From assembly GCA_964387765.1 (NCBI GenBank), contig CAYLXS010000001.1:437-64436 (forward strand): a stretch of 64,000 nucleotides of DNA, given 5' to 3'. The notes beneath the pieces were generated by a model, which saw only the letters and a program-made list of their open reading frames with translations, was not told where the DNA came from and did not search any database. The position numbers and the translations under genes were made by a program. The DNA comes from an uncultured Syntrophaceae bacterium (GTDB lineage Bacteria; Desulfobacterota; Syntrophia; Syntrophales; UBA2210). Below, one piece after another: positions 6,455 to 39,843 of the stretch (position 1 is the first letter of the stretch; the number at the start of each line of letters is the position of its first letter).

Positions 6455-6865
6455 TCATTGGGAACGGGGTGGCGGCGGGCGAAACATCCGGTGTTTGCCC
6501 CGCTGCTGGAATCTTTTCTGAAACCGGTCAAATTTCTGTTTCTGGTCGTCGGTGAGAATTTCCCGAATCATTCCAAAGTCGTGCTCTATGATTCCCCGTA
6601 TCTCAGGCTGGCACCTCTGGCTGATCTGGGCCAGTCTCTGGTGCGAGTTCCTGAGGATCTTCCCGATTTCGGTTCGTTGCTCCTCTGTCAGGTCGAGATC
6701 GCGCGAGAGTCTTCCCAGGAATAGTTCCGATCGTGCCTCCTGGCCTCTCTGCACAAAGTGGGAAACACGGTATTTCATATAGGCCTGTGTTCCGAACGAT
6801 CCCGCGAGGATTCCGAGGGCAAACACAAGCAGTACCCCGACAGATACTTTCAGTTTATTATTCAT
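6455..6865 (-). CDS. Periplasmic Spy/CpxP-like (LTxxQ) protein
   Basis: N-terminal TM/signal anchor, LTEEQRTEIGKIL and LTDDQKQKF motifs, and a position last in the ECF sigma operon. Confidence 0.65.
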   Translation of the reverse strand: MNNKLKVSVGVLLVFALGILAGSFGTQAYMKYRVSHFVQRGQEARSELFLGRLSRDLDLTEEQRTEIGKILRNSHQRLAQISQRCQPEIRGIIEHDFGMIREILTDDQKQKFDRFQKRFQQRGKHRMFRPPPPRSQ

Positions 6866-6877
6866 TCTCTTTTCTCC

Positions 6878-7192
6878 TTATAGCCCCCAGATCTGTTCGG
6901 CAGTGCTCTCAATCGGATTGGCCATGAATGTCGCGGTTATTTCGTATTCCGGAGAGTAATCAAGGTTTATTAGTGCCACCATCAGCACTACTATCAAAAG
7001 ACTGGCAACGGGGGCAAAACGCCACACAAACCGGCCAAAAAGCGCGGAGAAGTTTGCCGGGGATGCGGGGGCGCCGAGGCTTCGAATATCGCCCATCACA
7101 CGTGTCTCCCAGAACTCACCTGCATGAACAGTATCATTTTCCCGATACGCCGCGCCGAGTGCTTCTGTGATCTTTGTCGTGTTGTCTTTCAT
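6878..7192 (-). CDS. Putative membrane anti-sigma factor (single TM)
   Basis: A 4-nt start/stop overlap with the upstream ECF sigma gene and one TM helix (FAPVASLLIVVLMVALI). There is no zinc-binding anti-sigma motif. Confidence 0.45.
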   Translation of the reverse strand: MKDNTTKITEALGAAYRENDTVHAGEFWETRVMGDIRSLGAPASPANFSALFGRFVWRFAPVASLLIVVLMVALINLDYSPEYEITATFMANPIESTAEQIWGL

Positions 7193-7803
7193 TGTATCAT
7201 CCCCTCTCCTATCGGTCCCGAAAGGAGTTTCTTAAGTTTTCTCCGGGACCGGAACGACCGGACCTTGACATTGGCTGTGGTCCAGCCTAGCATTTCGGCC
7301 GCTTCTTTTACCGTCAGGCCTTCAAGATAGACCAGTTCCAGTACCATTCTGTCTTCGGCGGACAGTTTTGCCAGGGCCCAGTCAAGTACTTCCCGCGCCT
7401 CTTTCCGTGAACCGTGCTCGCCGAATGCACGGTCCGATGTATCCGATATGACGTTTTCGAGCCACTCCTGGTGTTTTTCCGTCAGAGAGCTCATGGGAAC
7501 CTCTTTCGACCGGTAGCGCTGCCTCCAGAAATCATAACAGGTCCGTACCGCGATAGAAGACAGCCAGTGCCTGAAGTTGTCTTCTCCCCTGAAAGTCGCC
7601 AGCGACTGATATGTCTGTATGAAGGCGTTGTGCGCTGTTTCTTCCACCTGATCATAGGGCACGTGTCTGCTCACAATTCCCATTACATGGTCCTTATATC
7701 GTGTCAGTATCTCCGCGAACGCGTCTGCGTCTCCGTCAATAATCCGTTGGATGATCTCGCGATCGCTGGGCTTGCTGGAAGTATTATGCATCGATTCACA
7801 CAA
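7189..7803 (-). CDS. ECF-type RNA polymerase sigma-70 factor
   Basis: Region 2 (VEETAHNAFIQTY..FRHWL) and a region 4 HTH (LEGLTVKEAAEMLGWTTANVKVRSFRSRRKL). Confidence 0.9.
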   Translation of the reverse strand: MCESMHNTSSKPSDREIIQRIIDGDADAFAEILTRYKDHVMGIVSRHVPYDQVEETAHNAFIQTYQSLATFRGEDNFRHWLSSIAVRTCYDFWRQRYRSKEVPMSSLTEKHQEWLENVISDTSDRAFGEHGSRKEAREVLDWALAKLSAEDRMVLELVYLEGLTVKEAAEMLGWTTANVKVRSFRSRRKLKKLLSGPIGEGMIQ

Positions 7804-7980
7804 TCAGGTTTGTTCAGTCTGCTGTCATAGTAAACGAAAATGGGTTCAATTTGCAATGCATAATCACCGGCACTGGCTCGGGGGTCGTCTGCACCTTCCG
7901 GTATACCAGTAAAGCGGGAATCGGAAGGGGCCAAGGAGGGAAAGCATCACCTATCCGTTCCCGCTTTTATTGGAATAATC

Positions 7981-8514
7981 TTACCTTCGGGGGCCGTCGC
8001 CGGGCAATCTGCCGGCAAACGACTTGCCATAACCTCGCTGTGATTCCATCCGGTCAGATCGTTCGGCCGTACGCTCATCGAGCAGTTTTGCCTGCTCAGG
8101 GGTAAGAACCGCTTTTATCTCGGTTATCATTTTTGTCCGCGAGATCAGCATGTCCTCTCGCACCGAAGACAACTTTTTATAGGCCTTGCGAACGCCCTGC
8201 TCGTTAACCTTGTCGGCCTGGAGGGCCTTCCTGAGGTTGTCACGATCCTTTATGAGGTCTCCTCTGGCCTTTACCCTGTCAATCTGATGGGTTTCCATAA
8301 TCTTGATGACCTGGTCCCTTTGAGAATCTGAAAGATTCAGGTCCATCACCGCTCTCAGGCCCGGTCCACCCGGCCCCGATCCCGTCAATCCCTGTTCGGC
8401 GCAATACCCTTCGCTACTTCTCCCGTGCCCTCTGGCTATTGCCACCGATGAAACGGCAAATACAACTGCCAGAACAACTGCCATCACCACTATGCTTTTT
8501 CTTGTTGATTTCAT
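7981..8514 (-). CDS. Periplasmic Spy/CpxP-family chaperone-like protein
   Basis: A signal peptide followed by LSDSQRDQV and LTPEQAKLL LTxxQ-type motifs. Confidence 0.7.
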   Translation of the reverse strand: MKSTRKSIVVMAVVLAVVFAVSSVAIARGHGRSSEGYCAEQGLTGSGPGGPGLRAVMDLNLSDSQRDQVIKIMETHQIDRVKARGDLIKDRDNLRKALQADKVNEQGVRKAYKKLSSVREDMLISRTKMITEIKAVLTPEQAKLLDERTAERSDRMESQRGYGKSFAGRLPGDGPRR

Positions 8515-8759
8515 TGATTACCTCCATCTTGTTTTTTATTGTGCCTGTGAAATGCTTTCCATTGCTGTGTTAGTCGCATGTTATTTCGAAAAGGTTACAA
8601 AGAAAATGCCTTGAACTAATTTCGATAGGTTATATAGTAGTATTCTTTCACACATTTCCGGGTCGTAAAACTTTTTTGTAACTACTTGTGGAATTGAAAC
8701 GACTATACTAAAATACAGTAAAGCACAGATTAAAAAATGCGGCTATTTAAGGATGGGGA

Positions 8760-10220
8760 ATGGCACATCGGGGTCTGAATACATTTCTACTGATCATTGT
8801 TGCAGTTTCTTTTATATCGTCATGCAGTCCTTTCAGACCCCCCGTTAGAACATCACCGGCCGGCGAAGTGCCCCTGACCTTCTCTCTCTACCCAACCGGA
8901 CCCGAGCGGTCGGAGCGGTGGTGGGAAGAATTCGATGACGAGGATTTGAACTCCCTGATCGAGGAGGCCTTGTCGGGCAGTTTCACTCTCAAAGAGGCCT
9001 GGGCCCGCCTGAGACAGGCGAAGGCCCTGGCAGTTCAGTCGGGAGTGGATCTCTATCCCGACCTCTCAGTCACGTCCGGGTCTTCTTTCAAACGCCAACG
9101 GTCAGAAAACAGTTCCGGCAGCCGGTCAACCGCATCGACCGAGAGCTATTCCCTGGGACTGAGCAGCAGTTACGAACTGGACCTCTGGGGACGAATACGC
9201 TCCGAACAGGAGGCAAAGATTCTCGATGCGACCGCCACCCGCGAGGACATCAATACGGCAGCCATGACGCTCACCGCAGAGGTTACGAGAAACTGGATCA
9301 ATATCATTTCGCAGAGAAGACAAAAAAAGATCCTGAATGAGCAATTCGCCATCAATATAACCTATCTGGAATTGATAGAACTTCGATTCCGTAAAGGGAT
9401 GGTCTCCGCTCTCGATGTCTATCAGCAGCGGCAGGTTGTCGAGCAGGTCAGGGCGCAACTACCCCTCGTCGAAGAGCAGGAACAGCTCCTGATGCACAAA
9501 CTGGCCCTGCTCCTCGGGAAGCCGCCCCGGACGTCGCTCACGATCAGCAGAAACACGCTCCCTGAATCTTCCGAAATCCCGAAAACGGGTCTCCCCGCGG
9601 ATCTTCTCGCGGCCAGGCCGGATGTGCGCTCGGCGGGTTTTAAACTGCGTTCAGCGGACTGGCAGGTCTCTTCCGCGCGGGCAAATCGTCTTCCCTCCAT
9701 CAGCCTGACCGCTTCGGCGACGTACCAGGCACCCGAAATTAACCTGCTCTTTCATACCTGGCTGATAAATCTCGCTGCAAACCTGACGGCCCCCCTCATT
9801 GACGGAGGACGTCGGGCGGCGGAGGTAGATCGTGCACGAGCGGTGGTGGATGAAAATCTGTCCGCTTACCGGAGGACGGTCTATACGGCGATCAAAGAGG
9901 TTGAAGATGCGCTGGTCACCGAGGAGAAAAAACGCCGGCATATCAAGGCCCTCAAGGCGGAGATTACCGCCGCCGGCCGGGCCCTCGATGAGGCCCGAGA
10001 TCGGTATCTAAAGGGAATAGACAATTATCTGCCTGTCCTGACACAGATCCTCAAGGTCCAGAGCCTTGACGTTGATCTGATCAAACGGCAGGCAGAACTG
10101 CTGATCGCACGTGTGGGCCTCTACCGTTCACTGGGAGGAACCTGGACGGACAAGCTTACCCCCGGCGGCGGTATGAAAGCAATAGAACCAACAAAAACCT
10201 CCAGCAATGATAAAGGGTGA
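8760..10220 (+). CDS. RND efflux outer-membrane factor lipoprotein (NodT family)
   Basis: Lipobox (..FISSC), 486 aa with two OEP-type repeats, and first position in a three-gene efflux operon. Confidence 0.9.
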   Translation: MAHRGLNTFLLIIVAVSFISSCSPFRPPVRTSPAGEVPLTFSLYPTGPERSERWWEEFDDEDLNSLIEEALSGSFTLKEAWARLRQAKALAVQSGVDLYPDLSVTSGSSFKRQRSENSSGSRSTASTESYSLGLSSSYELDLWGRIRSEQEAKILDATATREDINTAAMTLTAEVTRNWINIISQRRQKKILNEQFAINITYLELIELRFRKGMVSALDVYQQRQVVEQVRAQLPLVEEQEQLLMHKLALLLGKPPRTSLTISRNTLPESSEIPKTGLPADLLAARPDVRSAGFKLRSADWQVSSARANRLPSISLTASATYQAPEINLLFHTWLINLAANLTAPLIDGGRRAAEVDRARAVVDENLSAYRRTVYTAIKEVEDALVTEEKKRRHIKALKAEITAAGRALDEARDRYLKGIDNYLPVLTQILKVQSLDVDLIKRQAELLIARVGLYRSLGGTWTDKLTPGGGMKAIEPTKTSSNDKG

Positions 10221-10227
10221 AACTTAC

Positions 10228-11493
10228 ATGGAAAGACAGGAAAATACGAACACATCACCAGCGGATCAGACGGAACCAACCGGCACGAGCCGAAAGAGCC
10301 TGAAGATCATACTACCGTTTCTGATTCTCATTATCGCGATTGCCGTCGCGTTCTATGTCGGTAGCACCGCCCCCAAGGCACTTAGAACCCCTCCCGTGCG
10401 GGAGGCGCCTCTGGTGGAGACACTGCCGGCTCAGCACACTTCGGAACGGATAATAATCCCGGCGATGGGAAGCATCATCCCGGCCCGGGAGATCACGCTC
10501 AAATCACAGGTTTCGGGAGATATCTTGAAGATAAACCCCCGATTCACGGAAGGCGGACATCTAAAAAAGGGCGATGAGCTCCTGAAGATAGATGATCAGG
10601 ACTACCGCCTGGCCGTGGCCGAGCAGCACAGTCAGGTTGTCGGCGCCGAGTACGCTTTGAAACTGGAAATGGGACGTCAGGATGTCGCGCAGCGAGAGTG
10701 GGAACTGTTGGGCGGCGGCGACTCCTCGAAGGCTCCCGATTCCGAACTGGCCCTCCGCAAACCCCATCTTGAAAAGGCGCAGGCGGATGTCGCGTCAGCA
10801 CATGCCGCGATGAAGCGGGCCGAGCTGGATCTCGCCCGCACTACCGTTCGCGCTCCCTTTAACTGTATTGTGCGCACAAAAAATGTGGACCTGGGTTCCC
10901 ACGTCTCTTCCCAGGACCAGCTAGCAGAACTGGTGGGAACGGATGAATACCGGGTGCGGGCTTCCGTACCGCTCGACCGCCTCAAATGGATCTCCATCCC
11001 CCGTGGAAGGGATGATTATGGATCTAAGGCGCGTATCATCTACGGGAACGGGACCGGATATGAACGGAAGGGCAGCGTCGTCAAGTTGCTGGCAGACCTC
11101 GAAGAGGGGGGAAGAATGGCCCGTATCATAATCGCGGTCAAAGATCCGCTCGACTTAAAATCCCCGGAAAGCACCCGGCCGCCTCTTCTGATAAGCGAAT
11201 ATGTCCGCGTCGCGATCGAGGGCCCAGAGCTGAAAGGGATCATCGCCCTGCCCCGCTCCGCCCTGCGTGATGGTAAAAATATCTGGATCGCGGGCAAAGA
11301 TGACAGGCTCGATATACGGAGTGTAAATATCGTCTGGCGAGGAGAGACTACCGTACTGGTACAGGATGGAGTGGCGGACGGCGATCGGATTATTATTACC
11401 GATCTTGCAACCCCGATACAGGGAATACATGTCATGGTGAACAAACCGGCGAGCACAACCGCGGTGACAACACCCGGGCCTGAGAAACAGTAA
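10228..11493 (+). CDS. RND efflux periplasmic adaptor (MFP/HlyD family)
   Basis: A TM anchor plus coiled-coil and barrel segments, located between the OMF and the pump. The ATG at 10228 follows AAGGGTGA and is preferred over the overlapping 10207 start. Confidence 0.85.
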   Translation: MERQENTNTSPADQTEPTGTSRKSLKIILPFLILIIAIAVAFYVGSTAPKALRTPPVREAPLVETLPAQHTSERIIIPAMGSIIPAREITLKSQVSGDILKINPRFTEGGHLKKGDELLKIDDQDYRLAVAEQHSQVVGAEYALKLEMGRQDVAQREWELLGGGDSSKAPDSELALRKPHLEKAQADVASAHAAMKRAELDLARTTVRAPFNCIVRTKNVDLGSHVSSQDQLAELVGTDEYRVRASVPLDRLKWISIPRGRDDYGSKARIIYGNGTGYERKGSVVKLLADLEEGGRMARIIIAVKDPLDLKSPESTRPPLLISEYVRVAIEGPELKGIIALPRSALRDGKNIWIAGKDDRLDIRSVNIVWRGETTVLVQDGVADGDRIIITDLATPIQGIHVMVNKPASTTAVTTPGPEKQ

Positions 11494-11520
11494 TCATTAG
11501 CGAAGGAACCGATACTGACG

Positions 11521-14500
11521 ATGATGGAAAAGAACAGCGAAAAACGAGGTCCTCTCGCATGGATGGCGGGCAATTCCGTTGCCGCCAACCTGCTGATGAT
11601 CGTCCTGCTCGTGGGAGGCCTTATCTGGGCCCTTCAGATCAAGCAGGAGGTGTTCCCCGATTTTGACCCGGACCATGTAAACATCACCGTTGCCTATCCC
11701 GGGGCGAGTCCTGAAGAGGTTGAGCAGGCGATTATTCTTGCCGTTGAGGAGGCCGTTTCCGGCCTGGAGGGTATTAGAGAGATTACTTCCAGCGCGCGAG
11801 AAGGCTCAGGCTTTGTACAGGTAGAGATGATCGAGGGCTATGATAATCAGAAACTGGCACGGGATATTGAAAACGAGGTGGATCGCATCAGTTCCTTTCC
11901 TGAGGAAGCGGAAGATCCGCGAGTGGAGAGCACCCCTCATCGTCGGCAGGTCATCTCGCTGGTTTTGTACGGTGATCAGGATGAGCGAATACTCCGGGAA
12001 AAGGTTGAAGAGATCCGGGACAAACTCCTCCAGAACCCGGAGATTACCCAGGTGGACCTGTCCGGTATTCGTGACCTGGAGATCAGCATCGAGGTATCCC
12101 AGGATAAGCTGCGGGCCTATAACCTGACGCTCGATGATGTCGCGACAAAGGTACGGCAAGCATCCGTTGATCTCCCCGGAGGCGGCATCAAGACTGCCGG
12201 GGGCGAGATCCTGGTCCGCATGACGGAGCGGCGTGATTTCGGGGAACAATTCGCCCGCATCCCCATTATTTCCTCCAGCGACGGCACCCGCGTGCTCCTT
12301 GAAGATATCGCCACGGTGATCGATGGATTTGAGGATACGGATACTTACGCAACATACAACGGTAAGCCCGCCATGATGATCGACGTCTACCGGGTGGGCG
12401 ATCAAACCCCCCTGTCGGTGGGGGATGCCGTTATGCCATACGTGGAGGAATGGCGTCAGACACTGCCGGAGGGGATCAGTATCGATATACTGAGGGACAG
12501 TTCGGACGTGTACCGCCAGCGCCTGACCATGCTTCTCCATAACGGCTATATGGGTCTCGCCCTCGTGCTGATACTGCTCGGACTGTTTCTGGAGGCACGC
12601 CTGGCCTTCTGGGTGACCATGGGGATTCCAATATCCTTTCTCGGCTCGATCCTTTTTTTGCCGCATTTCGGAGTCAGCATCAACATGATGTCGATGTTCG
12701 CCTTTATCGTGGCGCTGGGAATCGTCGTGGACGACGCCATCGTGGTGGGAGAGAACATCTATACTTTCCGCGAAAAGGGTTATTCCTTCCGGAGGGCGGC
12801 CATTGAGGGAGTGCGCGAGGTGGCCATGCCAGTCACGTTCAGCATACTCACCAACATCGTGACCTTTACGCCTCTCCTCTTTGTACCAGGGATTCCCGGA
12901 AAAATCTTCAAGTCGATCCCGATTGTTGTGATCATCGTTCTAGCCATTTCCCTGGTGGAGAGTCTCTTCATACTTCCGGCCCACCTGGGACGCCGGAGCG
13001 ATAAGCCCGACCATGCGATCATGGCATGGTTGCACATGAGGCAGCAACGCTTCAGTAACCGGTTCAGCCGGCTTGTCAGGGAACGGTACGGACCCTTTCT
13101 GGACTGGGCCCTTACCTGGCGGTACCTGACGGTCGCCATCGGACTGGCGATCCTGATCATCACCCTTGTCTATGTGAACAGCGGGCGGCTGGGAATCACA
13201 CTGATGGAGCGGATCGAGTCGGACTTCGCCCAGGTGGAAGTCGCACTCCCCTACGGATCGGCAATTGAGAAGACAGAGGCGGTACAGACAACCCTTATAC
13301 AGGCGGCACGGAAGATTGCAGACGAAAACGGCGGGAAAACTCTGGTCAAGGGTATCTATTCTCGAATCGGGGCCCCGGTCAATGGAACGGCAGGCAGCCA
13401 TACCTGCCGATTGCGCGTATATCTCACCCCGGCCAATGAGCGCCCCATGGAGACGGGTGATTTTGTGAAGGTCTGGCGCCGCGAGGTAGGCGCGATTGCC
13501 GGTCTGGAAAGCCTCATTTTCAAGTCTGATGCCGGGGGACCCGGTTCACGGGCCTCCATGTCCATTGAACTGAGCCACCGGGATCTGGCGGTGCTTGAGG
13601 CCGCTGGTGCTGAGTTAGCCGAAGACTTGAGGTATTTCCCCAAAGTTAAGGATATTAATGATGGTTTCGCTCCTGGAAAGCAGCAGATCGACTTCATGAT
13701 TCGCCCGGAAGGCAGGGCCCTCGGTCTGACAGCTCGTGATGTTGCCGGCCAGGTCCGCAACTCCTTTTACGGAAGCATGGTGCTGCGTCAGCAACGAGGA
13801 CGCAACGAGGTAACCGTCATGGTGCGCCTCCCCGAAAATGAGCGCACGTCGGAATACACCCTCGAAGAACTGATGCTCAGGACGCCGACCGGCCAGGAGG
13901 TCCCGCTGAAGGAAGCAGTCACCATGAAGCGGGGACGTGCCTACACGGAGATAGACCGCAGAGATGGACGGCGGGTCATCACGGTGACAGCGAATATAAA
14001 TCCCCCCAGCGAGGCAAGCAGTGTTCTGAACACCCTCAAGGCGGAAACTCTTCCGGAGCTGAAACGGAAGTATGCCGGTCTGAACTATGGGTTTGAGGGA
14101 CGTCAGGCGGATCTTACGGACAGCATGAATAGCCTCTTTATGGGACTGGTGCTGGCCATGCTGGTTGTATACGCCCTGCTTGCTATCCCGTTTCGCAGTT
14201 ATATCCAGCCGCTGATTATCATGGTGAGCATCCCCTTCGGAATCGTGGGAGCGATCTTCGGTCATCTTCTCATGGGCTACAGCCTCAGCGTGATGAGCCT
14301 GTTCGGGATTGTGGCCCTCACTGGTGTGGTGGTCAACGATTCGCTGGTGTTGATCGATTTTGCCAACCGACAGCGGGCAAAGGGCAAAAATCCGCACGAT
14401 GCTATTCATACGGCGGCAATCAACCGCTTCCGCCCGATCCTCCTGACATCGCTCACGACCTTTGGAGGACTGACCCCTATCATGCTCGAAACCGCTAGAC

Positions 14501-14679
14501 AGGCCCGTTTCATGATTCCCATGGCCATTTCACTCGGCTTCGGGGTCCTCTTCGCAACCCTGATCACACTGATTCTGGTGCCCTGCTTCTACCTGGTGGT
14601 TGAGGATCTTAAGTTGAAAAAACCCGGCGAGTTATCGGACGTCGGAGTGAGAGAACCCGTTGATGTAACGGGTAGATGA
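11521..14679 (+). CDS. RND efflux permease (AcrB/CzcA family)
   Basis: 1052 aa with 12-TM architecture and conserved GIVVDDAIVVGENI / GVVVNDSLVLIDF segments. Confidence 0.95.
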   Translation: MMEKNSEKRGPLAWMAGNSVAANLLMIVLLVGGLIWALQIKQEVFPDFDPDHVNITVAYPGASPEEVEQAIILAVEEAVSGLEGIREITSSAREGSGFVQVEMIEGYDNQKLARDIENEVDRISSFPEEAEDPRVESTPHRRQVISLVLYGDQDERILREKVEEIRDKLLQNPEITQVDLSGIRDLEISIEVSQDKLRAYNLTLDDVATKVRQASVDLPGGGIKTAGGEILVRMTERRDFGEQFARIPIISSSDGTRVLLEDIATVIDGFEDTDTYATYNGKPAMMIDVYRVGDQTPLSVGDAVMPYVEEWRQTLPEGISIDILRDSSDVYRQRLTMLLHNGYMGLALVLILLGLFLEARLAFWVTMGIPISFLGSILFLPHFGVSINMMSMFAFIVALGIVVDDAIVVGENIYTFREKGYSFRRAAIEGVREVAMPVTFSILTNIVTFTPLLFVPGIPGKIFKSIPIVVIIVLAISLVESLFILPAHLGRRSDKPDHAIMAWLHMRQQRFSNRFSRLVRERYGPFLDWALTWRYLTVAIGLAILIITLVYVNSGRLGITLMERIESDFAQVEVALPYGSAIEKTEAVQTTLIQAARKIADENGGKTLVKGIYSRIGAPVNGTAGSHTCRLRVYLTPANERPMETGDFVKVWRREVGAIAGLESLIFKSDAGGPGSRASMSIELSHRDLAVLEAAGAELAEDLRYFPKVKDINDGFAPGKQQIDFMIRPEGRALGLTARDVAGQVRNSFYGSMVLRQQRGRNEVTVMVRLPENERTSEYTLEELMLRTPTGQEVPLKEAVTMKRGRAYTEIDRRDGRRVITVTANINPPSEASSVLNTLKAETLPELKRKYAGLNYGFEGRQADLTDSMNSLFMGLVLAMLVVYALLAIPFRSYIQPLIIMVSIPFGIVGAIFGHLLMGYSLSVMSLFGIVALTGVVVNDSLVLIDFANRQRAKGKNPHDAIHTAAINRFRPILLTSLTTFGGLTPIMLETARQARFMIPMAISLGFGVLFATLITLILVPCFYLVVEDLKLKKPGELSDVGVREPVDVTGR

Positions 14680-33439: not shown

Positions 33440-34402
33440 CTACCCATCTAAATTTTCAATCGCACCCCTTATCATATTTTCATCCTGAGGAGCAAACCAT
33501 TTGATGTCCGGATCTCTCTTGAACCACGTCAGTTGTCTCCTGGCATAGTGCCTCGTGTCACGTTTGATCAATCTCACCATATCCTGCTCGCTCTGTTTCC
33601 CTCTGATGAAGGAAATAACGTTCCTGTAGGTCATGGATTGCATCGGCCTGACTAATTCGTCATAACCCTTGTCCATGAGCTTCTCTACTTCCTCCACAAG
33701 TCCGGCCTCCATCATTTTTCCAACCCTGTCGTTTATCCTGTCGTACAGAATACTCCTGTCGACATTAAGGCCTATCTTCACGAAATCATATACAGTGTTG
33801 CCGAACCTGTGTTCTCTCTGTATTTCAGCAATGGACTGCCCGGTATGCTCCAGCACCTCAAGCGCCCTTATTGTCCTGACAAGATCATTCGGATGTATTC
33901 TTTCGGCGGCCGTTGTATCCATCTCTCGCAACCGCCTGTAAAGGTGTCCTTTCCCATATTGCGCGGCGTCTTTTCTATAGGAATCGCGGAGCCTCCCGTC
34001 AGCGCCGGGGGCATTCAAAAGCCCTCCGAGCAGAGCGTCCAGATACAACCCTGCACCGCCCACCACAAATACCCTTTTATGCCTGCTGTGAAGAAGAGCA
34101 ATCGCCTCATCGGCTTTTTTCACAAACATCGCAGCGTTAAATTCTTCATCCGGATTTACAACATCAATCAGGTGATGAGGTATACGAAGTTTCTCTTCAG
34201 GAGAGGGTTTTGCGGTGCCTATATCCATGTGCCGGTATACCTGCATCGAGTCGGCACTGATAATTTCTCCATCGTATTTCTCGGCAAGCCTGATAGCCAG
34301 GTCGGTCTTTCCCACCCCGGTGGGACCTGTGATAACAATAAGCGGAGGTTTTGGGCGTGTCTCCATTTGGGGGTTTTGAGTTTCCGGTTTCGAGTTTTCC
34401 AT
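33440..34402 (-). CDS. miaA: tRNA dimethylallyltransferase
   Basis: P-loop GPTGVGKT and the MiaA pattern. Confidence 0.9.
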   Translation of the reverse strand: MENSKPETQNPQMETRPKPPLIVITGPTGVGKTDLAIRLAEKYDGEIISADSMQVYRHMDIGTAKPSPEEKLRIPHHLIDVVNPDEEFNAAMFVKKADEAIALLHSRHKRVFVVGGAGLYLDALLGGLLNAPGADGRLRDSYRKDAAQYGKGHLYRRLREMDTTAAERIHPNDLVRTIRALEVLEHTGQSIAEIQREHRFGNTVYDFVKIGLNVDRSILYDRINDRVGKMMEAGLVEEVEKLMDKGYDELVRPMQSMTYRNVISFIRGKQSEQDMVRLIKRDTRHYARRQLTWFKRDPDIKWFAPQDENMIRGAIENLDG

Positions 34403-34447
34403 TTAGATCAATCCTTGATGGACCCATAAAAAGTCCCAAAAACGTCA

Positions 34448-34486
34448 TGCCGCACTTGATAAGCCTGCCCCGTACTTGATACGGGG
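34448..34486. repeat. Tandem half-repeat ending in hairpin CCCCGTACTTGATACGGGG
   Basis: ..GCCGCACTTGATAAGCC.. is followed by CCCCGTA-CTTGA-TACGGGG (34468-34486). It sits at the miaA-proximal edge of the islet. Confidence 0.5.
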
Positions 34487-34693
34487 CCATCCAGAACGTA
34501 TTGAATGGAAACTTAGGGTTATAGGGAAGCTTGTCAGAAGCTTGGGATTAAAGTTTGAATCCCTACCTTGAATGGGTGTCCCCTATCCTCCTCTCAAAAA
34601 TGGCAAGAAAAATTTGATTCGAGTCTGAGCCCATTTCCCATTAAAGAAAGATAGTCGTTGTCACTGTTTTAACGTTCGAGTGAATTTGCCTTG

Positions 34694-34912
34694 CTACGTG
34701 CGGTTTTGCAATTCCGATTCTTCAATTTCTACTATCTTCATCAGATGCTTTAGCAACCCTATTTTTAATGGAGTATTGCCATGAACAGGAACAGATATGC
34801 GGGCAGTATTCCCGGCTTTTGCATAAATATGGTGACTTCCGTTGATACGCTTTAATTTCTACCCTTTGGATTCTAAGATACTGCAAAATCGTTTTCCGCT
34901 AACAACTTTCAA
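34694..34912 (-). pseudogene. hicA: hicA toxin gene interrupted by an in-frame amber codon
   Basis: My translation is (TTG)KVVSGKRFCSILESKG*KLKRINGSHHIYAKAGNTARISVPVHGNTPLKIGLLKHLMK.., a typical HicA. The TAG at 34859-34861 sits where HicA proteins have a Trp/aromatic residue. The start overlaps the hicB stop. Confidence 0.75.
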
Positions 34913-35112
34913 ACTGCTATCTCCATTACTTTGCCTTTTCCTGAGATGACTATGTCTTGAACATTTACTGATAGACAACCTTCGACGGCTTCGTAAATGT
35001 TACTCAACAATTCGTCAAAAGAATCGCCTTGAGTAGCACATCCCGGGATGGACGGCACTTCAGCCCAATACCCACCTTCTTCTGCTTCATGTACTACTAC
35101 TTTTAATTTCAT
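34909..35112 (-). CDS. hicB: HicB-family antitoxin (N-terminal domain only, 67 aa)
   Basis: MKLKVVVHEAEEGGYWAEVPSIPGCATQGDSFDELLSNIYEAVEGCL matches the HicB/UPF0150 pattern. Confidence 0.85.
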   Translation of the reverse strand: MKLKVVVHEAEEGGYWAEVPSIPGCATQGDSFDELLSNIYEAVEGCLSVNVQDIVISGKGKVMEIAV

Positions 35113-35304
35113 AATATATCCTTTGATTAATAGACTAATTGCCCTGCCCTATTATCTTCGGTCTCGTGACTACTTTTATCAGACAAGAATATCACATATC
35201 AATGCTTGAAAACACATCTAAAAACAGGACGCTGCCTGGATGAAGTGCGGGACGGAATAGACGGAAACGAGTATCTGAACGTAGAAGTTGAGTTATTTAC
35301 TTAT

Positions 35305-35913
35305 TTACGGACGTTCCCCCATCTCCCTTTTATCTTGTTGTGCATCCCATTTCCATTCCTCGAATGTCTGCTGGTTAAGTGAACGAAAAGAGATGAATAC
35401 GCTTGAGAAGAAGCCATGGTCGAGTGACCAGTCGGTCTTGTAGCATGCATCCCTCATCTCGTCGCGATCAAACCACGGGCTCTTCACGGCAACAAGGAGC
35501 ATTCCGGAGCCGTATTTCTTGTGCGGGTTTTCGTAGCTTTTCTTGGACAACTTCTTTTTCAGCAGCGTAACGAAGCGCCCGGCTGCTTGGGCATCCATAC
35601 CGACGTAAGGCCCAGACTTCATAGGCTTGTGGGTTTCTCCGGGAGTTGCGTCTGAGTATCGGTCTTTCGCCCACTCGTCTGAATAGAATGCATCGGTCAC
35701 TTCAATCCAACTAGTCCTGAGGTCAGACTGAATGATGGCATCGGGAGGGTCTGGTCGTGAAATCACTTGGAACTGTTCTCCTGTCTCTGACGCCCACCAT
35801 CGGATGAAAGCATCTACAAGAAATCGTTCACACTTGTCTTTGACTATGCTGCGGCTGGTCATTTTGCACTCTCTTGCACAAAACTGCATCAGTAGCATCA
35901 CCACACTTTTCAC
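35305..35913 (-). CDS. Hypothetical protein, possible PD-(D/E)xK-like fold
   Basis: No family recognised. The RPDPPDAII...WIEVTD spacing resembles a nuclease core but the Lys position is not conserved. The start is uncertain (GTG 35913 or the ATG 17 codons in). Confidence 0.4.
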   Translation of the reverse strand: MKSVVMLLMQFCARECKMTSRSIVKDKCERFLVDAFIRWWASETGEQFQVISRPDPPDAIIQSDLRTSWIEVTDAFYSDEWAKDRYSDATPGETHKPMKSGPYVGMDAQAAGRFVTLLKKKLSKKSYENPHKKYGSGMLLVAVKSPWFDRDEMRDACYKTDWSLDHGFFSSVFISFRSLNQQTFEEWKWDAQQDKREMGERP

Positions 35914-36279
35914 CGGCTACTGAATGCTTTTGTTCGGCGATTATTGCCGGTTAACTTGTTAAGGGTGGTGGATAAAAAATCCGTCGCCTTTTCCTTATTA
36001 TTACCGGAAATTGGAAGTAGCCAAGATTCTTTCAAATCCAGGAAATATTCTTTCAAAAGCTTGCAGTGTAGTCTCAAAACTCACAAGATATATCCTCTTT
36101 CCTCTAATGCAGAATATTTTCCGGGCGACTACGTCAATTTCTATATTGATATTTTTGATTGTGTAATATGTTGTTATTAAATATGCTGGAAATTCACCTA
36201 AAAAGGTGTCTCTATGTTCTCCTAATTCTGCATCTGGAAAACGTTGCTGTAATCACGATATTGTCCCATTTTTATCCTT

Positions 36280-37056
36280 TTATCTTGTGCAATCTTTTGT
36301 TAATTGTTTTACTCGCATTTTAATGTAAAGGGCTTTTGTCTTTTCAAGATTACCTTCCGTATCAGTAAAAGCTTTGGCATATATCGCTTTATTATATGTG
36401 CCGTCCTCTAATTCTCCCCAAACTTTTTCATAAAAATCGTTAGCATTAGATGATTCAACAAGCTCTTCCACATTTTTATTTAGAAATTCAGCTTTTTTAA
36501 CAGAGGAGTACTCACTAAATTTTGCACAAACAATCTGTGCCAATTCCCTTGCATTTTTCCCAGTCAACTTGTATTTTTCAGTAATAATTTTGTTTGGTTT
36601 TCCGGGGTGCGTTTTTGTTATTGTAATTACTTCTCTATCGCTACTAAACAACCCACCATCACGAGATTTGGATTCATCAATAGAGACTCCTATTATCGAT
36701 GACCATGGCACTTCATCAAACGGTCCGTCGTGGTACCAAATAAAGCCAGTTTTAGTAACAAGAATATCCCATTCGTTAGACAAAGCGAAAAAATCAATAG
36801 CTCCGACTTTTTTAGCTGTATTCTTAAGTTTCCGGTTTTGACTAAGGTCCAACGCGAGTGAAGCGACACCACCAAGCAATACAGCAGGCCCAAGTGCTAC
36901 TACAATGGCTGTTGTACTAATCCATTTCGCCGTACTCATTGTATTATTGCTTTGGCTTTCCTCGCTTTTTTCAACTGTTGGTTTTCCACAAGCAGGGCAA
37001 ATCAATGCAGTTTCTGATATTTCATGCTTACAGTTGAAGCAATTGACTAAATACAT
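36280..37056 (-). CDS. Zinc-ribbon / single-TM protein with a conserved C-terminal helical motif
   Basis: N-terminal CxxC..CxxC (CFNCKHEISETALICPACG), one TM (TAIVVALGPAVLLGGVASLAL), and C-terminal AIYAKAFTDTEGNLEKTKALYIKMRVKQL. A GGAGGGAG RBS precedes the ATG. Confidence 0.6.
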   Translation of the reverse strand: MYLVNCFNCKHEISETALICPACGKPTVEKSEESQSNNTMSTAKWISTTAIVVALGPAVLLGGVASLALDLSQNRKLKNTAKKVGAIDFFALSNEWDILVTKTGFIWYHDGPFDEVPWSSIIGVSIDESKSRDGGLFSSDREVITITKTHPGKPNKIITEKYKLTGKNARELAQIVCAKFSEYSSVKKAEFLNKNVEELVESSNANDFYEKVWGELEDGTYNKAIYAKAFTDTEGNLEKTKALYIKMRVKQLTKDCTR

Positions 37057-37255
37057 ACGCTCCCTCCATAGTTATCAAGGATTGATAAATTTGTTGACAG
37101 TTATTCAAAATAAAATACAAAAATAAAGAAATAAAGGAACAAATTTATTTATTTTCGATCTCCCTGTCTACGAAAGTCCACCTGCCTCGCAATTTTCGGC
37201 TTGATCTCATCCACAAATCTGAACTGCCGGCCAACTGTCCCCTTTCCCCGTCTTT

Positions 37256-37693
37256 TTACTCAGTCCATGGCACCGGTTGCCAGACAGGAAGGTCAAGTTT
37301 TTTCAGGGCTGCGCTGAATTTCCGGTCGAATGTTGCTATCATAGCCCCTTTTTTGGCACAGCAGACGGACGCAACGATAGCATCGCCATAATCCTGAATC
37401 TTATCAGGCCAGTACGAAAAAAGGATTTTCAGATCTACTTCGTGGACAATTTCTATTCCGGGCATGGTAACGAAATCATCTATCATGTCCCTTATTGCCG
37501 ATTGTGGAACATTATAGACCTTGTCCAGCACATAGACAAACTCGGTTATGACATTCTGTGGGCACAAAACCGACAACCGCAGTCCGGCGGCGTTTTCAAA
37601 AAGCCCGGCTATTTTGCCCTGCTGGGCCTTGTTTCTATCCGTCACAAAGGATATCAGCGCATTGGTGTCTATTACAATAGTATGTCTTTTCAC
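37256..37693 (-). CDS. vapC: PIN-domain toxin VapC
   Basis: IVIDTNALISF N-terminal acidic motif, 145 aa, and a 4-nt overlap with the upstream antitoxin. Confidence 0.85.
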   Translation of the reverse strand: MKRHTIVIDTNALISFVTDRNKAQQGKIAGLFENAAGLRLSVLCPQNVITEFVYVLDKVYNVPQSAIRDMIDDFVTMPGIEIVHEVDLKILFSYWPDKIQDYGDAIVASVCCAKKGAMIATFDRKFSAALKKLDLPVWQPVPWTE

Positions 37694-37923
37694 AGGTATC
37701 TTTCTCCCCGCCGTTTTCTTGATAATTTGACGTCGTTTTCGATATCCCCGCTACCTGTTTTGACAGCGTTTCTAAAGTTTAAAAAGTTTTTCTGCATGGG
37801 TAAAACTACGATCTTCCCATTTTCTACGTTCCATTCAAGAGTATCATGGATGGATAGACTGAGATCTTCTCGAACAGCTTTAGGTATGGTTGTCTGATAC
37901 TTGGAAGTTATAGTTGTTCGCAT
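37690..37923 (-). CDS. vapB: AbrB/SpoVT-type antitoxin VapB
   Basis: SKYQTTIPKAVREDLSL swapped-hairpin motif. Confidence 0.85.
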   Translation of the reverse strand: MRTTITSKYQTTIPKAVREDLSLSIHDTLEWNVENGKIVVLPMQKNFLNFRNAVKTGSGDIENDVKLSRKRRGERYL

Positions 37924-37959
37924 AACCTGATTCCCCTTTTTTTATTTTTGCACGAACCC

Positions 37960-38010
37960 TTACACTAATTCTTACAAAACACTATTAGCGTAAGAAATAA
38001 TAAATGTCAA
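37960..38010 (-). promoter_or_regulatory. vapBC promoter with an overlapping inverted repeat (candidate operator)
   Basis: The minus strand reads TTGACA (38005-38010), N17, TAATAG (37982-37987). The inverted repeat TTACACTAAT (37960-37969) / ATTAGCGTAA (37984-37993) matches at 9 of 10 positions. Confidence 0.55.
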
Positions 38011-38024
38011 GATAATGTAAACCC

Positions 38025-39833
38025 TCATCTCCTCTTGAACATCCTCTCTAAATCCCTTATGTCAAGCACTGCATAGGTAGGTCTTCCGTGAGGACAGGTT
38101 GCCGCGAATGGTATCGAATCGAGGTCTTTACACAACGCCGCGACCTCTGAGTCTGTCAATTTGTGGTTGGCTTTAACGGCACCTTTGCATGCCATGAGGG
38201 CAAGGATTTTGTCTTTTATTTCAGTAGCATTCTCAGTCTTCCCTGTATCCTCAACCTCTTCTATTATATCGGAAATAAGCTCCTCAATGTTGCACCCTGT
38301 CAGGAATGCGGGAATCTGTTTTACCAGTATCGTATTCTCGCCATACCCTTCCACGCCAAGGCCCACAGCTTTCAGCGCGTCAATATTGTTTATAAGCAGG
38401 TCAAAGCGCCCGGGCTGAAGGTTCACAACCTCCGGTATCAGCAAGCCCTGAATATGTGTCATCTCTCTCGTGGACACCTTCAGCCTTTCAAAAAGAACCC
38501 TTTCGTGGGCGGCATGCTGATCCATAAGAATAAAGGCTCCCTCCGATGAAAACGCGAGGTATGTGCCCGCAATCTGTCCCAGATAGTTGAGAGATGAAAA
38601 GTTTACCGCGTCTTCCGACACATCACGCTCATTGAAAAGTTCCGGCAGTTCCTCCCCGCCTTCTCTCCCACCGAAGGAATCCGGCGCTTTCCTCATTCCC
38701 TTCTCAGAAACATTTACGTTAAAGGTTTTCTTTTCAGTACCCGACAAAACGGTGTACCTTTTTAAAACGTTTCCAACCCTTTCTCTGTAAGCATCCGCTC
38801 TCACTCCGAAAGAGGGTCCGGAGAGTTCACTCCTGTCAGTGGACATACCGGACAATGCACTGGAGAGGGTGTCTGTAACAAGGCTGTATATATCTCCCGA
38901 GCTTCTGAAGCGCACCTCCAGCTTGGCCGGATGGACATTTATATCCACATCGGACGCGGGCATATCTATAAACAGGACAACATAAGGAAACCTCCTGGGC
39001 TCTATCAATCTCCTGTAAGAGCTTATAACCGAATGATTCAGGAGTCTGTCCCTTATGAACCGGTTGTTGATAAAATAGAACTGCCCCTTTGTGTTTGCCC
39101 TTGTGCGGTCGGGCATGGAGATAACGCCCCGAATGGTTGCGTCTCCCCTCTGTCCTTTTACTTCAAGTGTGTGTCTCCCGAAATCTTCGCCAAATACAAG
39201 CGCGATTCTATCTGACAGATTTTTTGTTCTGGGTACATTAAAGATAGTTTTGCCCTTTGCGACGACCCTCATCTTCACTTCCGGGTTGGAAAGTGCCAGT
39301 CTCATTATAGCGTCTACGCAGTGGGTCTGTTCGGTGGAATCCCTCTTCATGAACTTCATCCGGGCCGGTGTGGAATAAAAGATATCGCTGACAAACACCG
39401 ACGTACCGACAGGGCAGCCGGCATCAATAATCTCCTCGACTCTGCCCCCCCTTACCACCGCCCGGGTACCTGACAAAGATTCGTTTTTCCTTGTCAGTAT
39501 TTCAATTCTGGATATGGAAGCTATACTTGCAATGGCCTCCCCCCGAAATCCAAAGGAGGTTATATTGTGAATGTCTTCAAATGTGTATATCTTGCTCGTG
39601 GCGTGTCTCTCAAAGGCGAGTTTTACGTCATCCCTGTCGATCCCCCTGCCGTTATCCACAATCTTTACAGATTGTTTCCCTCCACCTTCAAGTTCAATAA
39701 GGATATCGGTCGCGCCGGCATCAAGAGAATTCTCGACAAGCTCCTTGACTATGGAGGCGGGCCTTTCAATAACCTCGCCCGCGGCTATCCTGTTGGATAG
39801 ATCCTCAGGCATAACAACTATCTTTTCCTGCAA
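38025..39833 (-). CDS. mutL: DNA mismatch repair protein MutL
   Basis: GHKL ATPase N-terminus RIAAGEVIERPASIVKELVENSLDAGA. Confidence 0.95.
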   Translation of the reverse strand: MQEKIVVMPEDLSNRIAAGEVIERPASIVKELVENSLDAGATDILIELEGGGKQSVKIVDNGRGIDRDDVKLAFERHATSKIYTFEDIHNITSFGFRGEAIASIASISRIEILTRKNESLSGTRAVVRGGRVEEIIDAGCPVGTSVFVSDIFYSTPARMKFMKRDSTEQTHCVDAIMRLALSNPEVKMRVVAKGKTIFNVPRTKNLSDRIALVFGEDFGRHTLEVKGQRGDATIRGVISMPDRTRANTKGQFYFINNRFIRDRLLNHSVISSYRRLIEPRRFPYVVLFIDMPASDVDINVHPAKLEVRFRSSGDIYSLVTDTLSSALSGMSTDRSELSGPSFGVRADAYRERVGNVLKRYTVLSGTEKKTFNVNVSEKGMRKAPDSFGGREGGEELPELFNERDVSEDAVNFSSLNYLGQIAGTYLAFSSEGAFILMDQHAAHERVLFERLKVSTREMTHIQGLLIPEVVNLQPGRFDLLINNIDALKAVGLGVEGYGENTILVKQIPAFLTGCNIEELISDIIEEVEDTGKTENATEIKDKILALMACKGAVKANHKLTDSEVAALCKDLDSIPFAATCPHGRPTYAVLDIRDLERMFKRR

Positions 39834-39843
39834 GGCTATCTCC

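What the first reader, a model, noticed from the sequence alone, without database searches (positions are those of the whole stretch)
34403..38024. A 3.6-kb accessory islet inserted between mutL and miaA
mutL and miaA are immediate neighbours in many bacteria (the mutL-miaA-hfq arrangement is established knowledge). Here they are separated by vapBC with its own strong promoter directly after the mutL stop, a zinc-ribbon membrane protein, an unassigned 202-aa protein, hicB with a dead hicA, and a REP-like hairpin at the miaA edge. TA density together with unknown genes is the typical makeup of a small defence or addiction islet.
Basis: partly seen in the sequence, partly recalled or inferred. 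Interest (0 to 1): 0.55.

Follow-up and report, generated by a model that had tools for sequence, protein, structure and literature searches.

The report
Toxin-antitoxin islet between mutL and miaA
A 3.6-kb patchwork of foreign genes (one intact and one decaying toxin-antitoxin pair, an orphan membrane protein, and an uncharacterised nuclease-like gene whose relatives sit in anti-phage defence islands) has been inserted between two housekeeping genes that are direct neighbours in related bacteria; this kind of accessory islet is ordinary, but one passenger gene is worth a follow-up.

Summary
All genes lie on the minus strand in the order mutL, vapB, vapC, a 258-aa zinc-ribbon membrane protein, a 185-aa unknown (the 202-aa ORF has an upstream GTG), hicB, hicA broken by one TGG-to-TAG change, then miaA. 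In 11 related Syntrophales genomes with both genes, 10 have a mutL-miaA gap of only 32-302 nt. One has a different 3.2-kb insert there, and a twelfth has hicB plus intact hicA beside miaA. The islet is compositionally foreign (GC 0.41 against 0.47; lowest GC3 in the window). It has no integrase, tRNA, flanking repeats or attC sites. It is 100% identical in five independent metagenome assemblies. No protein matches a known defence-system model, so "defence islet" is not shown; "addiction islet at a hotspot" is. The "REP-like hairpin" is a 23-nt insertion in a miaA-proximal segment shared by two relatives, and it occurs nowhere else in the window or loci. The most interesting part is the 185-aa gene. 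Its family has 287 clusters, no Pfam domain and no structural neighbour. It has a PD-(D/E)xK-like topology and motif, always stands alone, and lies beside BREX, Thoeris, Shedu, Abi, type I restriction or STAND genes in 8 of 12 contexts.

The parts
38025..39833 (-). mutL, the upstream core flank. The insert starts directly after its stop codon.
   Evidence: Pfam MutL_C, DNA_mis_repair and HATPase_c_3. Sequence diverges from relatives right after the TGA.
37981..38010 (-). Sigma-70-like promoter candidate for vapBC (TTGACA, 18 nt, AATAGT).
   Evidence: 10 of 12 matches, the best in the region. A consensus match only; the count of such sites in the region equals chance.
37969..37996 (-). 7-bp inverted repeat TTCTTAC-N14-GTAAGAA spanning the -10 hexamer. 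Candidate VapB operator (inferred).
   Evidence: Read from the sequence.
37690..37923 (-). vapB antitoxin with an AbrB/MazE-type DNA-binding domain, 77 aa.
   Evidence: PF04014 E 2.3e-10. TIGR01439 AbrB E 1e-8.
37256..37693 (-). vapC PIN-domain toxin, 145 aa, apparently intact. 4-nt overlap with vapB.
   Evidence: PF01850 E 6.7e-10. D9, E51, D104 and D123 present.
36280..37056 (-). Orphan 258-aa protein: N-terminal CxxC...CxxC zinc ribbon, one transmembrane span, a PH/PTB-like middle domain and a helical C-terminus.
   Evidence: Zn-ribbon Pfam hits below cutoff. Hydropathy peak at residues 49-69. Only 2 relatives among 5.8 billion proteins. AF2 pLDDT 58.7. Foldseek PH/PTB hits at E 1.6e-3, prob 1.0. 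GC3 0.29, the lowest in the window.
35914..36279 (.). AT-rich spacer (GC 0.36) containing the lowest-GC 600-nt stretch of the whole window. It holds a plus-strand terminator-like hairpin at 35961-35991.
35305..35862 (-). 185-aa protein of an uncharacterised, standalone family associated with defence islands. Predicted PD-(D/E)xK-like fold.
   Evidence: plus the genomic contexts.
34651..35326 (-). hicBA module as a transferable unit. It is 94.2% identical to L006, where it also lies next to miaA.
   Evidence: The flanking miaA and valS are only 85-86% identical to L006.
34909..35112 (-). hicB, a short 67-aa antitoxin with only the toxin-binding domain.
   Evidence: PF15919 E 6.6e-7. phrog_497 HicB-like E 7.9e-10.
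34695..34912 (-). hicA pseudogene with a TGG-to-TAG change at 34859-34861 (codon 18).
   Evidence: Intact TGG in L006. The TAG is present in five 100%-identical independent assemblies.
34403..34480 (-). miaA-proximal segment shared with relatives L008 and L005. It is not cargo.
   Evidence: Alignment.
34467..34487 (-). Hairpin GCCCCGTA-TCAAG-TACGGGGC, part of a 23-nt insertion or duplication specific to the window.
   Evidence: Not repeated elsewhere.
33440..34402 (-). miaA, the downstream core flank.
   Evidence: PF01715 IPPT E 1.7e-84.

Best explanation
This is a lineage-specific accessory islet that occupies a recombination and insertion hotspot in the mutL-miaA spacer of a Syntrophales bacterium.

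It is a patchwork of at least four separately acquired modules, all pointing the same way as the surrounding operon:
1. An intact type II VapBC pair. The PIN toxin is held in check by an AbrB-type antitoxin that probably represses its own promoter.
2. An orphan membrane protein with zinc-ribbon, transmembrane and PH-like parts.
3. A standalone 185-aa gene with a PD-(D/E)xK-like predicted fold.
4. A hicBA pair in which the toxin has been killed by a nonsense mutation, leaving an orphan antitoxin.

The islet has no mobility genes of its own. It was most likely assembled and exchanged by homologous recombination through the conserved flanking genes. VapBC addiction would then favour keeping it.

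Shown: the gene identities, the inserted state, the foreign composition, the hotspot polymorphism, the dead hicA and the fixation in the population.

Inferred: the route of acquisition, autoregulation by VapB, retention by addiction, and nuclease activity of the 185-aa protein.
For: Synteny:
- The mutL-miaA gap is 32-302 nt in L001-L004, L007-L010, L013 and L014. The genes are also adjacent in more distant deltaproteobacterial and Binatia MAGs.

Hotspot:
- L005 carries a different 3.2-kb insert at the same site, made of GGDEF fragments and an MFS transporter.
- L006 carries hicB plus intact hicA next to miaA, with different DNA upstream.

Recent exchange:
- The hicBA module is 94.2% identical to L006, while flanking miaA and valS are 85-86% identical.

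Composition:
- Islet GC is 0.412 against 0.468 for the window.
- GC3 is 0.29 for the zinc-ribbon gene, 0.32 for hicB, 0.385 for vapB and 0.575 for the 185-aa gene. Core genes are 0.47-0.55.
- The differences between modules argue for separate origins.

Domain calls.

No mobility signature:
- No tRNA within about 14 kb.
- Only chance-level direct repeats.
- No attC core pairs.
- No Rfam match.

Stability:
- 3622 of 3622 nt are identical in five independent assemblies, in the same context.
Against: - No direct evidence for the route of acquisition.
- No expression or toxicity data.
- The promoter call is a consensus match in a region where such matches occur at the chance rate.
- Only three cargo states at the site were sampled, so "hotspot" rests on few genomes.
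- vapC GC3 (0.51) and the 185-aa gene's GC3 (0.575) are within or near the core range, so composition alone does not mark those two as foreign.
Confidence: 0.85

Rival explanations
1. It is a functional anti-phage defence islet. The 185-aa nuclease-like protein, possibly together with the zinc-ribbon membrane protein, would be the effector, and the toxin-antitoxin pairs would act in abortive infection.
For: - Homologues of the 185-aa protein lie next to BREX (L034), Thoeris plus SIR2 (L040), a NACHT/STAND NTPase (L041), PLD plus FRG plus FGE-sulfatase (L049/L072), type I HsdR with overlapping stop and start (L050), an AAA_21/AAA_15 ATPase (L053), Abi_C plus HigBA plus DUF4365 (L065), and Shedu SduA_C plus Abi_alpha plus a helicase-REase (L069).
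- It shows PD-(D/E)xK-like topology and conserved E12, D/E41, E54 and K104.
- It matches phrog_23471 at E 2.3e-14.
Against: - No PADLOC match for any of the five proteins.
- The 185-aa gene has no recurrent partner, and the zinc-ribbon gene is not found with it elsewhere.
- The association is by neighbourhood only and was not tested against a background rate.
- No significant structural or sequence link to a known nuclease.
Confidence: 0.2
2. The block is ancestral and was deleted in the relatives, so it is not an insertion.
For: L006 also has hicBA at miaA, and L005 has cargo at the same site. Some occupancy of the spacer is therefore older than this strain.
Against: - Ten Syntrophales relatives and many distant MAGs have the genes adjacent. 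Many independent precise deletions would be needed.
- The GC3 of the zinc-ribbon gene and of hicBA is far below core values.
- The hicBA module is less diverged than the flanking core genes.
Confidence: 0.05
3. It is a remnant integron cassette array (an attC cluster without an integrase) or another site-specific mobile element.
For: The genes are small and co-oriented, they include toxin-antitoxin pairs, their composition differs from gene to gene, and the spacers are 190-370 nt. That resembles a cassette array.
Against: - No RYYYAAC...GTTRRRY core-site pair on either strand.
- No integrase or transposase in the flanks.
- No flanking direct repeats beyond chance.
Confidence: 0.04

Closest known systems
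Type II toxin-antitoxin system VapBC (PIN toxin with AbrB/SpoVT-type antitoxin)
   Same: Antitoxin-then-toxin order, a 4-nt overlap, a PIN domain with all four acidic residues, an AbrB/MazE-type DNA-binding antitoxin, and a promoter-like site with an inverted repeat upstream.
   Different: Low similarity to curated VapC equivalogs (NF047959 14 bits against a cutoff of 80). Activity not tested.
HicAB toxin-antitoxin system
   Same: HicB N-terminal domain, and a HicA_toxin domain once the stop codon is repaired. The genes overlap.
   Different: hicA carries a nonsense codon at position 18. HicB is only 67 aa and has no DNA-binding C-terminal domain. The order is antitoxin first.
Small genomic islets at hotspots between conserved core genes (integrase-free flexible islets; defence or addiction islands)
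   Same: Presence/absence polymorphism with alternative cargo at one core-gene junction, deviant composition, toxin-antitoxin content, and a gene whose relatives live in defence islands.
   Different: Very small (3.6 kb). No recognisable complete defence system. No mobility genes.
PD-(D/E)xK nuclease superfamily (for the 185-aa protein)
   Same: Predicted helix, three strands, helices, then a fourth strand. There is an acidic residue on helix 1 (E12), D/E41 at the start of strand 2 and an invariant E54 in strand 3. Weak Foldseek hits include FokI, EcoO109I, Hjc, XisH, VRR-NUC and alk-exo.
   Different: No lysine two residues after E54 (it is Thr56); the invariant lysine is K104 on a helix. No significant sequence or structure match to any member (best Foldseek E 0.019, TM below 0.4). 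No Pfam domain in any of 11 members scanned.

Membership tests
VapBC type II toxin-antitoxin | PIN-domain toxin with the conserved acidic residues | tested here: met
   PF01850 E 6.7e-10. D9, E51, D104 and D123 present.
VapBC type II toxin-antitoxin | Adjacent upstream antitoxin with a DNA-binding domain, translationally coupled to the toxin | tested here: met
   PF04014 E 2.3e-10. TIGR01439 AbrB. The vapB stop overlaps the vapC GTG start.
VapBC type II toxin-antitoxin | Toxin arrests growth and the antitoxin neutralises it | not testable with these tools
   Needs expression experiments.
HicAB type II toxin-antitoxin | Intact HicA toxin reading frame | tested here: not met
   TAG at 34859-34861 replaces Trp18. 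The domain scores E 1.3e-15 only after repair. The stop is present in five identical independent assemblies.
HicAB type II toxin-antitoxin | HicB antitoxin domain | tested here: met
   PF15919 E 6.6e-7, 29.9 bits against a cutoff of 27.
Classical integrase-borne genomic island | Integrase or recombinase gene, tRNA target and flanking direct repeats | tested here: not met
   No such genes in the islet or its flanks. The nearest tRNAs are at about 20.1-20.3 kb. Repeats are at chance level only.
Classical integrase-borne genomic island | Deviant composition and presence/absence among relatives | tested here: met
Integron cassette array or attC cluster | attC sites with RYYYAAC...GTTRRRY cores between the cassettes | tested here: not met
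   Zero core-site pairs on either strand (0.46 expected by chance). No attC covariance model was available.
Known anti-phage defence systems (PADLOC-DB v2) | Match of any component to a defence-system model | tested here: not met
   No hit at E <= 0.1 for any of the five proteins.
PD-(D/E)xK nucleases (185-aa protein) | Helix-strand-strand-strand-helix-strand core fold | tested here: met
   AF2 model with pLDDT 88.9: H3-27, E32-35, E42-45, E50-58, helices, E120-126. This is a prediction, not a solved structure.
PD-(D/E)xK nucleases (185-aa protein) | Catalytic D ... (D/E)-x-K motif on strands 2 and 3 | tested here: inconclusive
   D/E41 in 72 of 74 sequences and E54 in 74 of 74, but position 56 is Thr, Ala or Val. 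The invariant Lys is K104 on a helix.
PD-(D/E)xK nucleases (185-aa protein) | Significant sequence or structure similarity to an established member | tested here: not met
   No PDB sequence hit. Foldseek best E is 0.019 against PDB and 0.006 against BFVD, with TM below 0.4. hhalign against a DUF4365 protein gave probability 0.1.
REP-type dispersed repeats (hairpin at the miaA edge) | Many dispersed copies in the genome | tested here: not met
   Only this locus in 64 kb. Among 57 loci, only the orthologous position in L008. The whole genome was not available.
PH/PTB-like fold (middle domain of the 258-aa protein) | Seven-strand sandwich capped by a C-terminal helix, similar to known PH domains | tested here: inconclusive
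   Strands within residues 86-165 followed by helix 169-195. Foldseek PTB/PH hits at E 1.6e-3, prob 1.0, TM(target) about 0.5. Model pLDDT is only 58.7.

The most novel reading that the evidence does not exclude
The 185-aa protein (35305-35862) would represent an undescribed, standalone, highly divergent PD-(D/E)xK-type nuclease family that acts as a single-gene anti-phage or anti-mobile-element defence. The family has 287 clusters at 50% identity, no Pfam domain and no structural neighbour. This would explain why it recurs inside defence islands next to BREX, Thoeris, Shedu, Abi and type I restriction genes with no fixed partner.
Probability: 0.2. Interest if true: 0.6.

Novelty: new member of a known kind. 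Interest (0 to 1): 0.3.

Why it matters
As an islet it is ordinary. It adds one more case of toxin-antitoxin-rich flexible DNA lodged between conserved core genes, here in an uncultured syntrophic lineage. It also shows a clean natural example of toxin decay (hicA) leaving an orphan antitoxin.

The practical value lies in two leads:
- The mutL-miaA spacer is a usable marker site for strain-level variation in these Syntrophales.
- The 185-aa family is a compact, confidently folded, uncharacterised protein that keeps company with defence systems. It is cheap to test as a candidate new defence gene.

Tried and rejected
- PADLOC on all five proteins: no hits.
- NCBIfam: only generic AbrB and weak VapC matches.
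- Rfam at gathering threshold and at E <= 1 on the islet: nothing.
- Profile searches of the 185-aa family against PDB sequences: nothing meaningful.
- Foldseek against PDB and BFVD: no hit at E <= 0.001.
- hhalign against a neighbouring DUF4365 protein: no relation. A second comparison failed on coordinates.
- Pfam on ten longer family members to look for informative fusions: none.
- tblastn of three family members and the window protein against phage and plasmid collections: no match.
- Scan of viral contigs: none.
- Search for a recurrent partner gene across 12 contexts: none.
- attC core-pair search: none.
- Flanking-repeat search: only chance-level pairs.
- Repeat status of the hairpin: single locus only.
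- Look-up of P0035: not on record.
- Literature search for a mutL-miaA hotspot: nothing relevant.
Full report
**Anatomy.** Everything in 30.7-42.6 kb is on the minus strand: pgk, truA, rmlD, mutL (38025-39833), then the 3,622-nt interval 34403-38024, then miaA (33440-34402) and valS. Pfam confirms MutL and MiaA. The interval holds the following:
- **vapB** (37690-37923): MazE/AbrB domain, E 2.3e-10.
- **vapC** (37256-37693): PIN domain, E 6.7e-10. It overlaps vapB by 4 nt, and all four PIN acidic residues are present.
- **A 258-aa protein** (36280-37056): two CxxC pairs with zinc-ribbon hits below the Pfam cutoff, and one hydrophobic span.
- **A 202-aa ORF.** Its real start is the ATG at 35862, giving 185 aa. 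This follows from 31 aligned homologues and from gene calls in other assemblies.
- **hicB** (34909-35112): E 6.6e-7.
- **A hicA reading frame** overlapping hicB and interrupted by TAG at 34859-34861. With that codon read as Trp it matches HicA_toxin at E 1.3e-15.

A TTGACA, 18 nt, AATAGT site sits 14 nt after the mutL stop. A 7-bp inverted repeat spans its -10 hexamer. This is only a consensus match.

**Is it an insertion?** A scan with MiaA returned 33 loci, mostly Syntrophales/Syntrophaceae MAGs with 67-87% MiaA identity. I mapped the window's proteins onto them.
- In ten of those loci the order is pgk-truA-rmlD-mutL-miaA-valS, with a mutL-miaA gap of 32-302 nt.
- mutL and miaA are also adjacent in more distant deltaproteobacterial and Binatia MAGs.
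- Sequence similarity to the relatives stops right after the mutL TGA and resumes about 75 nt before the miaA ATG.
- L005 has a different 3.2-kb insert at the same site, made of GGDEF fragments and an MFS transporter.
- L006 has hicB and an intact hicA (TGG) beside miaA, with unrelated DNA upstream.

The spacer is therefore a hotspot with at least three cargo states.

**Composition and mosaic origin.**
- Islet GC is 0.412 against 0.468 for the window. The lowest-GC 600 nt of the whole 64 kb lies at 36001-36600.
- GC3 is 0.29 for the zinc-ribbon gene (the lowest of all ORFs), 0.32 for hicB, 0.375 for hicA, 0.385 for vapB, 0.51 for vapC and 0.575 for the 185-aa gene. Neighbouring core genes are 0.47-0.55.
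- The block shared with L006 is only 34651-35326, the hicBA module. Its upstream edge lies inside the last 21 nt of the 185-aa ORF.
- That module is 94.2% identical to L006, while the adjacent miaA and valS are 85-86% identical. This points to recent lateral exchange of the module.

**Mobility signatures.** None were found:
- no integrase or transposase in or beside the islet;
- no nearby tRNA;
- only chance-level flanking repeats;
- no attC core pairs;
- no Rfam family.

Acquisition by homologous recombination through the conserved flanks is the most economical route, but this is inferred.

**Population status.** The exact VapC protein is on record in 40 blocks of public assemblies. Five independent ENA contigs carry the whole 3,622 nt at 100% identity in the same context, and a sixth does so at 99.9%. 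The hicA stop is therefore real and fixed, not a sequencing error.

**The hairpin.** The stem-loop at 34467-34487 is part of a 23-nt insertion within a segment that L008 and L005 also carry upstream of miaA. Its fold is unremarkable (z = -1.4). Its motifs occur nowhere else in the window, and among the 57 loci only at the orthologous spot in L008. "REP-like" is not supported with the data at hand.

**The 258-aa protein.** It has only two relatives among 5.8 billion proteins, one identical and one at 73% identity. The 73% relative sits in short contigs, in one of them next to a DUF5615 gene. The AF2 model is poor (pLDDT 58.7). It does show seven strands followed by a long helix at residues 86-195, and Foldseek places this with PTB/PH domains (E 1.6e-3, prob 1.0). 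Function is unknown. My working guess is a membrane-anchored adaptor or sensor.

**The 185-aa protein.**
- A word-indexed search found 34 clusters, none with a Pfam domain or a name.
- A full HMMER profile search found 287 clusters at E <= 0.001, nearly all standalone proteins of 170-195 aa.
- Ten longer members have no Pfam domain.
- The protein matches phrog_23471, of unknown function, at E 2.3e-14. No phage, plasmid or viral-contig hit was found by tblastn or pattern scan.
- AF2 gives a confident model: pLDDT 88.9, pTM 0.84, with the order helix, three strands, helices, strand.
- Across 74 diverse members, E54, K104 and G120 are invariant, E12 is present in 70 of 74, and position 41 is D or E in 72 of 74.
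- An acidic residue on helix 1, D at the start of strand 2 and E in strand 3 is the PD-(D/E)xK layout. However, the canonical Lys two residues after E54 is missing.
- No significant structural or sequence match to any known nuclease was obtained. I treat "nuclease" as an inference at roughly even odds.

**Genomic company of that family.** In 12 distinct contexts, 8 have recognisable conflict genes within about 5 kb:

| Locus | Neighbouring conflict genes |
|---|---|
| L034 | BREX BrxB and BrxC, plus DUF4145 |
| L040 | Thoeris ThsB and SIR2-STALD, plus another SIR2 |
| L041 | NACHT/STAND NTPase |
| L049/L072 | FRG, PLD and FGE-sulfatase |
| L050 | Type I HsdR, whose stop overlaps the gene's start |
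| L053 | AAA_21/AAA_15 ATPase |
| L065 | Abi_C, HigBA and DUF4365 |
| L069 | Helicase-REase, Shedu SduA_C and Abi_alpha |

No neighbour recurs across contexts. This is guilt by association and was not tested against a background rate.

**Verdict.** The "addiction" part is shown at the level of domain content. The "defence" part is only suggested, through one passenger gene. The islet as such is an ordinary member of a well-known kind. The uncharacterised 185-aa family is the one item worth experimental follow-up.

Noticed in passing
window 39834-39843 (rmlD-mutL junction); L001:7401-8204: Relatives L001, L004, L008, L013 and L014 have an extra gap of about 850 nt between rmlD and mutL that the window lacks. 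In L001 it holds a 267-aa metallo-beta-lactamase-fold hydrolase gene. This is a second variable spot in the same operon.
   Followed up: partly
L003:9862-10000: The mutL-miaA spacer of this relative is filled by a run of GGGATCA heptamer tandem repeats.
   Followed up: no
L006:885-1015: Downstream of hicA and just before miaA there is a long palindrome with arms of about 20 nt (AACAGGGACAGCGCCCTTTTT ... AAAAAGGGCGCTGTCCCTGTT). The MiaA N-terminus also differs from the window's.
   Followed up: no
window 6455-14679: A block of higher GC (0.52-0.56; GC3 0.55-0.67) than the rest of the window, including three consecutive plus-strand ORFs of 486, 428 and 1052 aa. It may be another acquired region. 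Not annotated here.
   Followed up: no
L060:5860-7669: In one metagenome assembly whose islet is 99.9% identical, mutL is called as two ORFs (136 and 441 aa). This could be a disrupted mutL allele or an assembly error.
   Followed up: no
window 35961-35991 (+ strand): A 13-pair terminator-like hairpin followed by a T-rich tail, on the strand opposite to all the islet genes, inside the AT-rich spacer between the zinc-ribbon gene and the 185-aa gene.
   Followed up: no
L001:8222-9868: mutL in this relative ends early (548-aa ORF), while the conserved C-terminal coding sequence continues in another frame. This is a possible frameshift or an assembly error.
   Followed up: no
L066:4200-5198 and L069:6040-6363: SNase-like (staphylococcal nuclease) genes occur near the 185-aa family gene in two unrelated contexts. 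They are weakly similar to each other (24.6% identity, E 2e-5) and are the only hint of a recurring neighbour.
   Followed up: partly
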